In this document: positions 4,950 through 6,176 of the stretch, one piece after another
How positions within the stretch are numbered: the stretch's first letter is position 1
Layout: every line of letters begins with the position of its first letter
Sequence record: PV287714.1
DNA from: Escherichia phage HMD-9
Length of the DNA stretch: 64,000 bases
Direction: 5' to 3' (one strand)
The notes under the pieces: generated by a model
What the model was told of the DNA's origin: nothing
What the model saw: the letters and a program-made list of their open reading frames with translations, nothing else
The model's database searches: none
Position numbers and translations under genes: made by a program

Positions 4950-4977
4950 TAAAAAGCCCTAACCTTTCGGTCAGGGT
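4950..4977 (-). terminator. rho-independent terminator (GAAA tetraloop hairpin plus U-run)
   Basis: minus-sense CCCUGACC-GAAA-GGUUAGGG then CUUUUU; near-identical to the hairpin at 5509-5536. Confidence 0.6.
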
Positions 4978-4985
4978 TAAGAATG

Positions 4986-5459
4986 TTATTTGATTTGTTT
5001 AGCAGACCAAATGCGGTCTTTAATAATTTTTTGGATGTCTTCAACATACTCTAGGTCATGAGCATGTGGGTTGTCTTTGAAACTATAAGCACGGGCTAAC
5101 TTTTGGCCTTCGGTTTTGATTACTAAAAGCTCTTTAAGGATAGCTTCATATTTAGCGATAATTCCTTTAACAATATTTTTTTCTTGTGCAGCTTTAGGAT
5201 CCGCTTTAGGAGCAGGTTTACCGGAAGGTTTTTCGAAAGCCGCACCAGTAGCAACCAGGCTTTTCCAGGCGGTGGTAACATAGTTACCCACAAAGCCTTC
5301 AGCTCTCATATCGTCGTAGAACTTGTACCGGGATTCGTCAGAAGCATCTTTATAAGAATATTTACCAGCTTTAATAGCAGCAGTTGCTACAGCGCGAACA
5401 TCTGAAGCGGATGCTTCATTTAACGCCACTTCATTTAAAAATTGAGCATATGATTTCAT
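4986..5459 (-). CDS. internal-protein-like protein with capsid-targeting sequence
   Basis: 157 aa; N-terminus MKSYAQFLNE|VALNE fits the CTS pattern. Confidence 0.65.
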   Translation of the reverse strand: MKSYAQFLNEVALNEASASDVRAVATAAIKAGKYSYKDASDESRYKFYDDMRAEGFVGNYVTTAWKSLVATGAAFEKPSGKPAPKADPKAAQEKNIVKGIIAKYEAILKELLVIKTEGQKLARAYSFKDNPHAHDLEYVEDIQKIIKDRIWSAKQIK

Positions 5460-5499
5460 CTTATTTCCTGTTTTAATTCGTGATTTAATACACTACTAT

Positions 5500-5507
5500 A
5501 TTTATAC
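5500..5507 (-). promoter_or_regulatory. T4 late promoter core TATAAATA
   Basis: minus-sense TATAAATA about 40 nt upstream of ATG 5459. Confidence 0.55.
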
Positions 5508-5508
5508 T

Positions 5509-5536
5509 AAAAAGCCCCAACCTTTCGGTCGGGGCT
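5509..5536 (-). terminator. rho-independent terminator ending the tRNA operon
   Basis: minus-sense CCCCGACC-GAAA-GGUUGGGG then CUUUUU. Confidence 0.6.
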
Positions 5537-5584
5537 AAGCCTTGCGGCAACCTTGTCGGGGTTCCACCTGCTAAGGCAAGTGTT

Positions 5585-5846
5585 TGTACGAAACGCCGGG
5601 ATTCGAACCCGGTTATTAAGCAGTTGACGCTACTCAATATTTTAAAAGGCCATATCTCGACCATATCCGAACGTTCCGTCAAAAACGCTACTCGGCTTAC
5701 GGCAAAGATATTTCCTCGAATCGATAATTCGGTGCGCCGTTTCAGCTGTGATAGTAAAGAACCAGAACACAGTAAAACTGTGGGAGGAACTATACTCCAT
5801 GGAACATCAGTCCGACGACTTACCGGTAGCGACCCGGTTTCTTGTT
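5585..5846 (-). ncRNA. ORF-free structured tract inside the tRNA operon; candidate stable small RNA(s) (T4 species 1/2-like)
   Basis: canonical T-arm CCGGGTTCGAATCCCGG at 5596-5612; 3' strand CGTTTCG can pair with TGAAACG about 150 nt upstream; bounded by tRNA-Arg and the operon terminator. Confidence 0.35.
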
Positions 5847-5922
5847 TGGTCGAGGCAGTAGGGGTCGAACCTACGACCTAGGACTTAGAAGGTCCTTGCT
5901 CTTCCTTCTGAGCTATGCCTCG
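5847..5922 (-). tRNA. tRNA-Arg (anticodon UCU)
   Basis: cloverleaf by hand: acceptor CGAGGCA/TGCCTCG, D-arm GCTC..GAGC, anticodon loop CTTCTAA, T-arm GTAGG-TTCGACC-CCTAC, CCA encoded. Confidence 0.85.
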
Positions 5923-5926
5923 GATT

Positions 5927-6001
5927 TGGCGGACATGCATGGATTCGAACCATGGACCAATTGATTAACAGTCAACTGCTCTACCACTGAGCTACACATC
6001 C
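5927..6001 (-). tRNA. tRNA-Asn (anticodon GUU)
   Basis: acceptor GGATGTG/CATGTCC (two G-U pairs), D-arm GCTC-AGTGGTA-GAGC, anticodon loop CTGTTAA, T-arm CATGG-TTCGAAT-CCATG, CCA encoded. Confidence 0.75.
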
Positions 6002-6101: not shown

Positions 6102-6176
6102 TGGTGGCCCTGGGTGGAATTGAACCACCATCTGGCGATTATGAGTCGCTTGCTTGAACCTTCCAGCTACAGGGCC
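6102..6176 (-). tRNA. tRNA with anticodon CAU (Ile2/lysidine type by T4 position; Met not excluded)
   Basis: acceptor GGCCCTG/CAGGGCC, anticodon loop CTCATAA, T-arm GGTGG-TTCAATT-CCACC, CCA encoded; 1 nt from tRNA-Thr. Confidence 0.8.

What the first reader, a model, noticed from the sequence alone, without database searches (positions are those of the whole stretch)
5585..5846. ORF-free tract with a tRNA-like terminus inside the tRNA operon: candidate stable small RNA(s)
About 260 nt between tRNA-Arg and the operon terminator has no credible ORF but carries a canonical T-arm (CCGGG-TTCGAAT-CCCGG, 5596-5612) whose 3' strand CGTTTCG can pair with TGAAACG about 150 nt upstream, and two copies of GAGTAGCGT. 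This resembles the T4 species 1 and 2 stable RNAs, which are RNase-P-processed and still have no assigned function.
Basis: partly seen in the sequence, partly recalled or inferred. Interest (0 to 1): 0.55.

Follow-up and report, generated by a model that had tools for sequence, protein, structure and literature searches.

The report
T4 species 1 and 2 RNAs
This stretch is the counterpart, in a T4-like phage, of the two small stable RNAs (rnaD and rnaC, "species 2 and 1") known from phage T4 since the 1970s, so it is real but not new, and what these RNAs do remains unknown.

Summary
The window is a Tequatrovirus genome, and the tRNA operon runs on the minus strand. The tract after tRNA-Arg aligns base for base with the annotated T4 genes rnaD (window 5845-5731) and rnaC (window 5724-5587). 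A 48-nt trailer and an intrinsic terminator (5536-5509) follow.

Two structural details of the observation do not hold:
- The 3' acceptor-like strand pairs with CGAUUCG at the 5' end of rnaC. It does not pair with GAAACG 150 nt upstream.
- The 9-mer repeat is near chance level.

Comparison of 17 distinct rnaC sequences from four phage genera gives a strongly covarying cloverleaf (98.6% of cells paired; 26 of 43 pairs with compensatory changes). It has:
- an acceptor-like stem with two invariant U.U mismatches;
- a 70-nt hairpin in the D-arm position;
- a 10-bp arm with an invariant 6-nt loop;
- a canonical T-arm;
- no anticodon loop and no encoded CCA.

ARAGORN's "tRNA-Lys" call inside rnaC is false.

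rnaD is a hairpin followed by a long rod with a swappable centre. Relatives of the window's type also sit in the tRNA arrays of Vequintavirinae and Phapecoctavirus-like phages.

A published adaptive SNP in phage BW-1 restores one base pair in rnaD's distal hairpin, and the window already carries the paired allele. Function remains unknown.

The parts
5847..5922 (-). tRNA-Arg(UCU), the unit immediately upstream of the tract (context)
   Evidence: ARAGORN. Rfam tRNA 66.9 bits.
5731..5845 (-). rnaD orthologue (T4 species 2 RNA), centre of 'type C'
   Evidence: Coordinates transferred from the T4 annotation through alignment A1. 745 phage records match, but only 170 over at least 80% of the length.
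5822..5838 (-). rnaD hairpin P1: ACCGG-GUCGCUA-CCGGU
   Evidence: Present in every fold. The stem changes to ACAGG/CCUGU in Esher1 and AUAGG/CCUAU in PM2. Per-pair counts on 10 sequences are.
5813..5819 (-). rnaD long-range helix P2, 5' strand GUCGUCG
   Evidence: Pairs with 5739-5732. The inner pair is G-C in 7 sequences and C-G in 3.
5732..5739 (-). rnaD long-range helix P2, 3' strand CGGCGCAC.
5768..5782 (-). rnaD distal hairpin CACAG-UUUUA-CUGUG, flanked by the conserved pyrimidine strands UUCCUCC and UUCUGGU
   Evidence: The stem and most of both flanks keep their sequence in the Certrevirus and Phapecoctavirus-like relatives, while the loop varies. This is the site of the BW-1 adaptive SNP.
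5725..5730 (-). Spacer GAAUUA between rnaD and rnaC
   Evidence: AAAUUA in T4.
5587..5724 (-). rnaC orthologue (T4 species 1 RNA), a cloverleaf-shaped tRNA mimic
   Evidence: 136/139 identical to T4 rnaC. 744 phage records match. Covariance model R1 scores 164 bits here, and the next best match in the window, which overlaps tRNA-Asn, scores 21.7 bits.
5717..5723 (-). rnaC acceptor-like stem, 5' strand CGAUUCG
   Evidence: Pairs with 5595-5589. The two central U.U mismatches are invariant. The third pair is A-U in 9 sequences and G-C in 8.
5646..5716 (-). rnaC long irregular hairpin in the D-arm position (helices 2-5), with tip UUGACG at 5682-5677
   Evidence: 16 of its 23 pairs show compensatory changes. 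Its sequence is largely replaced in EnC15, Kosakonia 305 and L013 while the pairing is kept.
5614..5639 (-). rnaC 10-bp hairpin in the anticodon-arm position, with invariant 6-nt loop CGUCAA (5629-5624)
   Evidence: 8 of 10 pairs show compensatory changes. The loop is complementary to the tip UUGACG and both are invariant in 17 sequences.
5596..5612 (-). rnaC T-arm CCGGG-UUCGAAU-CCCGG
   Evidence: The middle pair is G-C in 9, U-A in 7 and A-U in 1.
5589..5595 (-). rnaC acceptor-like stem, 3' strand CGUUUCG, followed by an invariant UACAA tail (no encoded CCA)
5538..5586 (-). Conserved 3' trailer with the hairpin CACUUGC-CUUA-GCAGGUG (5582-5565). JS98 and L180 keep it although they lack rnaC.
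   Evidence: Not analysed further.
5509..5536 (-). Intrinsic terminator of the tRNA operon: 10-bp stem, GAAA loop, U run

Best explanation
The tract holds two separate, long-known genes for small stable RNAs of T-even phages. They are rnaD (species 2, about 115 nt, window 5845-5731) and rnaC (species 1, about 138 nt, window 5724-5587). Both are co-transcribed with the ten tRNAs of the operon and released by the host's tRNA-processing enzymes.

Shown here:
- rnaC is a cloverleaf-shaped derivative of a tRNA. It keeps the part that RNase P and T-loop enzymes recognise: a 7-position acceptor-like stem stacked on a canonical 5-bp T-arm.
- The D-arm is replaced by a 70-nt hairpin. The anticodon arm is replaced by a 10-bp hairpin with an invariant 6-nt loop. 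The 3' tail is UACAA rather than CCA.
- rnaC and rnaD are independent modules. Each occupies a 'tRNA slot' in phage tRNA arrays.

Inferred biogenesis:
- RNase P cuts at the 5' end of rnaC. That cut also creates the 3' end of rnaD.
- Exonucleases then trim rnaD back to its terminal helix P2.
- The 5' end of rnaD is left by 3' processing of tRNA-Arg.

Inferred function, at roughly 0.3 probability:
- rnaC cannot decode and, lacking an encoded CCA end, is probably not aminoacylated. It would act as a stable tRNA mimic that occupies a host or phage tRNA-binding factor.
- rnaD would act through its conserved, pyrimidine-flanked distal hairpin in a host-strain-dependent way.
For: Identity:
- T4 annotation, pairwise alignment and identity counts.
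- 744 phage records match rnaC and 745 match rnaD, nearly all Tevenvirinae.
- RB9, RB5 and RB55 records annotate these matches as rnaC or rnaD.

rnaC structure:
- 17 distinct sequences, 43 pairs, 98.6% of cells paired, 26 pairs with compensatory change. 0 of 500 shuffles reach this, and slid controls pair at 38-44%.

tRNA-slot behaviour:
- In EcS1, VIPECLOM01, Pet-CM3-4, PG7 and EnC15, rnaC lies alone. The BLAST match starts 6-9 nt after one tRNA and ends 6-9 nt before the next.
- JS98, PSTCR6, L016 and L180 carry rnaD without rnaC.

RNase P recognises the acceptor plus T-stem minihelix, and T4 tRNAs arise from closely spaced multimeric precursors (PMC11143913).

Expression in T4: northern blot of RNAC, and RNAC and RNAD classed as late RNAs (PMC9697503).

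Function of rnaD:
- The only mutation shared by three BW-1 lines that gained virulence on ECOR34 maps to rnaD (PMC12685909).
- I place it at L171 position 355, A to G on the RNA strand. That changes CACAG/CUAUG to CACAG/CUGUG, restoring a C-G pair.
- In a 30-nt probe, 105 phage records match the paired version at 99% or more, and 8 match the mismatched version.
- The stem and most of the flanks of this hairpin keep their sequence in Certrevirus and Phapecoctavirus-like phages.
Against: - No transcript data exist for this particular phage.
- The exact ends are transferred from the T4 annotation. The T4 5' end of rnaC lies one nucleotide upstream of the position expected for a 7-bp acceptor stem.
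- rnaD folds are not more stable than shuffles for most variants (z -0.6 to -1.6). Its covariation is thin: one swapped pair in P2 and a few in P1.
- No partner, target or phenotype is known for rnaC.
- As I recall without a citation held here, T4 deletions of the tRNA region grow on laboratory hosts.
- No antisense target above chance was found in the 64-kb window.
- The BW-1 mapping assumes that GenBank OR125554 uses the coordinates of the paper. The rnaC coordinates do agree (hit H76).
Confidence: 0.85

Rival explanations
1. Part of the tract is a genuine decoding tRNA. ARAGORN calls a tRNA-Lys(UUU) of 94 nt at 5679-5586, and some GenBank records annotate the same stretch as tRNA-Met or tRNA-Lys.
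For: ARAGORN call. PG7 annotates tRNA-Met over the homologous stretch, and phage 55 lists a tRNA-Lys under the match. The internal 8-bp 'acceptor' ACGGAACG/CGUUUCGU pairs in 90% of cells.
Against: - No Rfam tRNA match even at E up to 10. Only tRNA-Sec at 16.4 bits, against a gathering score of 47.
- Across 17 homologues the proposed D stem pairs in 51% of cells and the anticodon stem in 43%.
- The internal acceptor shows no compensatory change, and one of its pairs is broken in 7 sequences.
- The supposed anticodon loop is not conserved.
- The rival fold is supported at 98.6%.
Confidence: 0.02
2. The RNAs are processing by-products with no role of their own: spacer and relic-tRNA segments that survive only because they are structured.
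For: - They lie in a tRNA operon, and their ends are set by neighbouring processing sites.
- Either one can be absent from related phages.
- rnaD fold energies are close to those of shuffles.
- The function is reported as unknown (PMC3014915, PMC9697503).
Against: - Compensatory changes maintain every rnaC helix, while loops and the two U.U mismatches stay invariant.
- rnaC is at least 95% identical in 680 of 744 records.
- Core motifs of rnaD recur in three phage lineages.
- A convergent adaptive SNP restores a base pair in rnaD (PMC12685909).
Confidence: 0.12
3. The elements act in cis for the operon. They would be processing and stability scaffolds: an RNase P entry site plus 3' structures that protect or time the maturation of the upstream tRNAs.
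For: - They sit at the 3' end of the operon, followed by a conserved trailer hairpin and terminator.
- The T4-like trailer is retained even where rnaC is lost.
- Processing of T4 dimeric precursors is known to be ordered (PMC11143913).
Against: - In Karamvirus and Kagamiyamavirus, rnaC sits in the middle of the array, not at its end.
- rnaD-like elements also sit between tRNAs.
- Invariant loop sequences are not needed for a mere structural barrier.
- Both RNAs accumulate as discrete stable species in T4 (PMC9697503).
Confidence: 0.1
4. The tract encodes small proteins. ORFs at 5485-5682 (minus, 65 aa) and 5642-5800 (minus, 52 aa) match PHROG families.
For: Matches to phrog_28391 (E 1.7e-35) and phrog_24262 (E 3.4e-29). 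Many phage records annotate hypothetical proteins here.
Against: - No frame is open in all 17 rnaC homologues, and their lengths differ by 1-4 nt.
- The window itself differs from most Tequatrovirus sequences by a 1-nt deletion inside the 65-aa ORF.
- That ORF runs through the trailer and the operon terminator.
- The substitution pattern is that of paired RNA.
- The PHROG families are most simply explained as ORF calls made on highly conserved RNA genes.
Confidence: 0.02
5. They are trans-acting base-pairing regulators or RNA sponges. The pyrimidine strands of rnaD (UUCCUCC, UUCUGGU) or the rnaC loops would pair with host or phage RNAs.
For: - Single-stranded motifs are invariant across families.
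- CCUCC resembles the anti-Shine-Dalgarno sequence (my reading of the sequence).
- From my own knowledge, tRNA-operon spacers can act as sponges in E. coli (3'ETS-leuZ).
Against: - No complementary target of 11 nt or more above chance in the 64-kb window.
- Neither RNA has a terminator-type U-rich 3' end of the Hfq-dependent kind.
- The two rnaC loops are complementary to each other, which points to an internal or dimer contact instead.
Confidence: 0.1

Closest known systems
Phage T4 rnaC (species 1 RNA, T4s001)
   Same: 136/139 identical. It lies after rnaD and before the operon terminator, and it has the same T-arm, acceptor-like ends and length.
   Different: A 1-nt shorter A run and two substitutions. 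Nothing of substance differs.
Phage T4 rnaD (species 2 RNA, T4s002)
   Same: It starts 1-2 nt after tRNA-Arg and has the same first 45 nt and last 28 nt, the same P1 hairpin and the same P2 helix.
   Different: The central 50 nt or so is a different cassette ('type C', also carried by phage T2 and phage BW-1). Overall identity is 92 of 121 aligned positions.
Canonical tRNA (Rfam RF00005)
   Same: rnaC has the four-arm cloverleaf topology, a 7-position acceptor stem next to a 5-bp T-stem with a UUCGAAU loop, and a tRNA-like position in tRNA arrays.
   Different: It has no 7-nt anticodon loop, no D-arm and no encoded CCA, and it has two U.U mismatches in the acceptor stem. It has no RF00005 match.
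tRNA-like domains of non-decoding RNAs (tmRNA, bacterial Y RNA YrlA, murine gammaherpesvirus 68 TMER RNAs; from my own knowledge)
   Same: They keep the acceptor and T-arm module that tRNA-processing enzymes recognise, while the rest of the molecule serves another purpose.
   Different: No sequence or Rfam relationship. There is no tag reading frame, no Ro-binding stem, and ARAGORN finds no tmRNA.
tRNA-operon spacer RNAs with a function, such as E. coli 3'ETS-leuZ (from my own knowledge)
   Same: rnaD is cut out of a tRNA transcript by the enzymes that mature its neighbours.
   Different: rnaD is much larger, highly structured and moves between phage tRNA arrays as a module. No target is known.

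Membership tests
T4 rnaC (species 1 RNA) | Sequence homology to the annotated T4 gene over its whole length | tested here: met
   136/139 identical. Model R1 scores 164 bits.
T4 rnaC (species 1 RNA) | Location in the tRNA operon downstream of tRNA-Arg and rnaD and upstream of the terminator | tested here: met
T4 rnaC (species 1 RNA) | tRNA-like acceptor and T-arm module | tested here: met
   Helices 1 and 7 are 100% paired, each with one compensatory pair.
T4 rnaC (species 1 RNA) | Accumulates as a stable RNA of about 140 nt, matured by RNase P | not testable with these tools
   Northern evidence exists for T4 only (PMC9697503). RNase P dependence is from my memory of the 1970s-80s literature, which is not held in the library.
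T4 rnaD (species 2 RNA) | Sequence homology to the annotated T4 gene | tested here: inconclusive
   The ends match (41/45 and 26/29) but the centre is a different cassette. Only 170 of 745 matching records cover at least 80% of the window's version. Orthology is clear from the ends and the synteny.
T4 rnaD (species 2 RNA) | Lies directly after tRNA-Arg and before rnaC | tested here: met
T4 rnaD (species 2 RNA) | Accumulates as a stable RNA of about 120 nt | not testable with these tools
   T4 data only (PMC9697503).
tRNA (RF00005; ARAGORN tRNA-Lys call) | Score at or above the Rfam gathering threshold | tested here: not met
   No RF00005 match in 5400-5846 at E up to 10. tRNA-Sec scores 16.4 bits against a threshold of 47.
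tRNA (RF00005; ARAGORN tRNA-Lys call) | Conserved D stem, anticodon stem and 7-nt anticodon loop | tested here: not met
   51% and 43% of cells paired. The loop sequence is not conserved.
tmRNA | tRNA-like domain plus a tag reading frame | tested here: not met
   ARAGORN with -m finds none. The only Rfam match is 10 bits on the T-loop.

The most novel reading that the evidence does not exclude
rnaD and rnaC are host-range or counter-defence RNAs. In this reading:
- The conserved pyrimidine-flanked distal hairpin of rnaD (5798-5760) is the active site. It is exchanged as a cassette between Straboviridae, Vequintavirinae and Phapecoctavirus-like phages, and it neutralises a strain-specific host factor, such as the one that limits BW-1 on ECOR34.
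- rnaC is a tRNA mimic held together, or dimerised, by a UUGACG/CGUCAA kissing contact. It titrates a tRNA-binding host factor.
- More widely, the tRNA arrays of large myoviruses would carry a shuffled set of non-tRNA structured RNA modules.
Probability: 0.2. Interest if true: 0.75.

Novelty: already known. Interest (0 to 1): 0.3.

Why it matters
The finding itself rediscovers two RNAs described about fifty years ago, so it adds no new kind of element. Their function is, however, one of the oldest open questions of T4 biology.

The comparative work done here gives that question handles:
- a covariation-backed cloverleaf for rnaC, showing which tRNA features are kept and which are lost;
- two invariant, mutually complementary loops that can be tested by compensatory mutation;
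- evidence that rnaC and rnaD are independent modules sitting in tRNA slots;
- relatives of rnaD outside the T4 family;
- a structural reading of the only known adaptive mutation in rnaD.

There is also a practical point. Rfam has no family for either RNA. Genome records therefore mislabel them as tRNA-Met, tRNA-Lys or hypothetical proteins.

Tried and rejected
- Rfam at gathering score and at E up to 10: nothing real in the tract.
- ARAGORN tRNA-Lys: rejected by covariation.
- The 9-mer repeat: 10% of shuffles have some 9-mer repeat, and it is not conserved.
- Pattern scans of metagenome contigs and genome contigs for the rnaC ends: swamped by a Bifidobacterium coding sequence and Planctomycete tRNA arrays, with no bacterial rnaC found.
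- IMG/VR scans returned few T4-like contigs.
- Model R1 found no rnaC in the Certrevirus, Phapecoctavirus-like, PM2, JS98 or PSTCR6 loci, and no second copy in the window.
- Search for antisense targets of both RNAs in the window: at chance level.
- Coding potential: rejected.
- A T-loop reading of the rnaD P1 loop GUCGCUA, and an acceptor-like pairing of the rnaD ends: considered from the sequence and dropped, because no complementarity exists.
- The 7-nt complementarity between the rnaC 5' end and its T-loop comes from the palindrome UUCGAA and was not pursued.
- Older primary papers (Paddock and Abelson; Broida and Abelson; Miller 2003) are not held in the library. A preprint that mentions ECOR34 immunity could not be opened.

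Full report
**What the window is**

BLAST of 5500-5930 against 50,697 phage records finds 965 records, led by Tequatrovirus genomes at up to 98.6% identity. ARAGORN and Rfam place ten tRNA genes on the minus strand, from Gln (6674) to Arg (5922-5847). The tract in question therefore lies downstream of tRNA-Arg on the minus strand. A terminator follows at 5536-5513 with a U run.

**Identity**

The T4 reference record annotates, directly after tRNA-Arg, the misc_RNAs rnaD ('species 2 RNA', 119 nt) and rnaC ('species 1 RNA', 139 nt). Aligning the window with that stretch and transferring coordinates gives rnaD at 5845-5731 and rnaC at 5724-5587, separated by the spacer GAAUUA.

- rnaC is identical to T4 at 136 of 139 aligned positions.
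- rnaD matches at 41/45 at its start and 26/29 at its end, but its centre is different.

Reviews and recent papers in the library still call the function of both RNAs unknown (PMC3014915; PMC9697503, which confirms RNAC by northern blot and classes both as late RNAs; PMC12685909). Rfam 15 has no family for either RNA.

**Checking the observation**

- Only 6 nt of the proposed long-range pairing of the acceptor 3' strand with TGAAACG are complementary. 94% of shuffles of the tract contain such a match.
- An exact 9-mer repeat appears in 10% of shuffles.
- Mechanical ORFs exist, and two of them hit PHROG families of unknown function. No frame is conserved, and homologues differ by indels that are not multiples of three.

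**Structure of rnaC**

Divergent copies were found in these phages:

- Kagamiyamavirus EcS1
- Karamvirus VIPECLOM01, Pet-CM3-4, PG7 and EnC15
- Kanagawavirus Kosakonia phage 305
- an IMG/VR contig, L013

In the first five phages the roughly 140-nt element stands alone, without rnaD. The match starts 6-9 nt after one tRNA and ends 6-9 nt before the next.

RNAalifold on 17 distinct sequences gives a four-arm fold:

| Element | Description |
|---|---|
| Acceptor-like stem | CGRUUCG / CGUUYCG, with two invariant U.U mismatches |
| D-arm position | 3-bp helix closing a long irregular hairpin |
| Linker | A-rich |
| Anticodon-arm position | 10-bp hairpin with a 6-nt loop |
| T-arm | Canonical, one nucleotide after the 10-bp hairpin |

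Counting pairs on the alignment gives 98.6% of cells paired and 26 of 43 pairs with compensatory change. No shuffle in 500 reaches this, and slid controls pair at about 40%. In EnC15, Kosakonia 305 and L013 most of the long hairpin has a different sequence but the same pairing.

ARAGORN's 94-nt 'tRNA-Lys' fold fares badly on the same alignment:

- The D stem pairs in 51% of cells.
- The anticodon stem pairs in 43% of cells.
- The internal acceptor shows no compensatory change.

It is a false positive, as are the tRNA-Met and tRNA-Lys labels in some GenBank records. After the acceptor stem the sequence is an invariant UACAA, not NCCA.

**A possible tertiary contact in rnaC**

The tip of the long hairpin (UUGACG, 5682-5677) and the loop of the 10-bp hairpin (CGUCAA, 5629-5624) are perfectly complementary. 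Both are invariant in all 17 sequences, although their supporting stems vary at most positions. Two random 8-nt loop regions share six contiguous Watson-Crick pairs with probability about 0.002. Because neither loop varies, covariation cannot test the contact. Whether the contact would form within one molecule or between two cannot be decided here.

**Structure and spread of rnaD**

All variants fold into the same layout:

- a 5' hairpin P1 (ACCGG-GUCGCUA-CCGGU);
- a long-range helix P2 (GUCGUCG with CGGCGCAC);
- a rod whose distal part comes in at least four unrelated sequence types: T4; a second type in several contigs and PSTCR6; the window's type C; and JS98.

Fold energies are mostly no better than those of shuffles, so the support is weaker than for rnaC.

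rnaD occurs without rnaC in JS98, Providencia phage PSTCR6, L016 and L180. A 30-nt probe of the type C centre also hit phages outside the T4 family. Fetching them showed rnaD-like elements inside tRNA arrays:

- Certrevirus phages PBES 02 and POP17;
- the Phapecoctavirus-like phage MirsaeidiM_Esher1, with BLAST matches in related records;
- a longer form in the Mosugukvirus PM2;
- a 153-kb IMG/VR contig, L181.

These relatives supply the covariation that the T4-like set lacks:

- The P1 stem changes to ACAGG/CCUGU and AUAGG/CCUAU.
- The inner pair of P2 switches from G-C to C-G in three sequences.
- The distal hairpin stem CACAG/CUGUG and most of its pyrimidine flanks (UUCCUCC, UUCUGGU) keep their sequence, while the loop varies.

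**Link to a published experiment**

In PMC12685909, three independent lines of phage BW-1 evolved on E. coli ECOR34 shared a single SNP at genome position 164264, T to C. Their virulence measure rose from 0.17 to 0.98.

BW-1 carries the window's type C rnaD. The position maps to L171:355, which is A to G on the RNA strand. The change turns CACAG-UUUUA-CUAUG into CACAG-UUUUA-CUGUG and replaces a C.A mismatch with a C-G pair.

The window already has the paired form (5782-5768). Among phage records probed with 30 nt, 105 match the paired version at 99% or more and 8 match the mismatched version. This is the only genetic evidence held here that rnaD structure affects fitness, and the effect depends on the host.

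**How it most likely works**

Shown:
- The two RNAs are separate modules that occupy tRNA slots.
- rnaC keeps the acceptor and T-arm module.
- rnaC has lost the anticodon loop, the D-arm and an encoded CCA.

From established knowledge, RNase P recognises the acceptor/T-stem minihelix, and T4 tRNAs mature from tightly spaced multimeric precursors (PMC11143913).

Inferred:
- RNase P cuts at the rnaC 5' end.
- That cut, followed by exonuclease trimming back to helix P2, defines the rnaD 3' end.
- 3' processing of tRNA-Arg leaves the rnaD 5' end.

The biological role is not shown. My preferred guess, at about 0.3, has two parts. rnaC would be a non-decoding tRNA mimic that occupies a tRNA-binding factor. 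rnaD would act through its conserved distal hairpin against a strain-specific host factor.

The rivals remain open at about 0.1 each: inert processing by-products, cis-acting operon scaffolds, and base-pairing regulators. A real tRNA and small proteins are effectively excluded.

**Verdict**

The feature is real and correctly interpreted, but it is already known. Interest is low to moderate. It rests on the testable structural and comparative leads, not on the finding itself.

Noticed in passing
window 5768-5782 (minus); L171 position 355: The convergent adaptive SNP of phage BW-1 on ECOR34 (PMC12685909) restores a C-G pair in the rnaD distal hairpin. The window carries the paired allele. In a 30-nt probe, 105 phage records match the paired version at 99% or more and 8 match the mismatched version.
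   Followed up: yes
L176 796-965; L178 429-597; L177 843-960; L179 about 495-790; L181: rnaD-like elements sit in the tRNA arrays of Certrevirus (Vequintavirinae), Phapecoctavirus-like and Mosugukvirus phages. The PM2 version is about 290 nt long and contains a nested T-arm-like GGAG-UUCGAAU-CUCC.
   Followed up: partly
L176 796-870; L178 429-500; L179 215-300; Kosakonia phage 305 (hit H268): The Certrevirus element has a further 5' module of about 75 nt (..CCAAGCUGGUAAUG..GCCCAGAUGG..). This module also matches, without the rnaD-like part, in CR3, Enterobacter phages, phiTE and Kosakonia phage 305. It may be another shuffled RNA module of phage tRNA arrays.
   Followed up: no
L168 530-605; L180 about 245-320: In PSD9 and L180 a stretch of about 70 nt lies between tRNA-Arg and rnaD (AAGCCGUCG...GACUGAU...CACCGGCGCAAC). 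It looks like a truncated extra copy of rnaD lacking P1 and the rod.
   Followed up: no
window 5847-5922: The window's tRNA-Arg(UCU) matches T4's at only 47 of 79 aligned positions, but matches JS98's at 65 of 76. The sequence immediately downstream is nearly identical to T4. There is thus a mosaic junction at the 3' end of the tRNA.
   Followed up: partly
window 6102-6176: ARAGORN calls tRNA-Met(CAU). The near-identical phage AugustSocin annotates the corresponding gene as tRNA-Ile reading AUA, so it may be a lysidine-type tRNA-Ile.
   Followed up: no
window 5485-5682 and 5642-5800 (minus): PHROG families phrog_28391 and phrog_24262 (unknown function) match ORFs that lie on rnaC, the trailer and rnaD. 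They are probably built from spurious gene calls on these RNA genes.
   Followed up: partly
window 5509-5536 and 4957-4976 (minus); 5499-5506: Two similar terminator hairpins with a GAAA loop (..CCGAAAGGUU..) end successive transcription units. The first is followed at once by TATAAATA, which I read as a T4 late-promoter consensus, ahead of the next gene.
   Followed up: no
window 5538-5586 (minus): The trailer between rnaC and the terminator is conserved. It includes the hairpin CACUUGC-CUUA-GCAGGUG and a direct repeat of CCCCGAC. JS98 and L180 keep it although they lack rnaC.
   Followed up: no
window 5822-5838 (plus strand): Read on the plus strand, the rnaD P1 hairpin is followed by a T-rich run and scores as terminator-like. 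It could stop antisense transcription into the tRNA operon.
   Followed up: no
L003-L007, L170, L002: Homing endonuclease genes sit at varying places in these tRNA arrays (AugustSocin, EnC15, PSTCR6; segB in T4). This may explain the mosaic exchange of tRNA and RNA modules.
   Followed up: no
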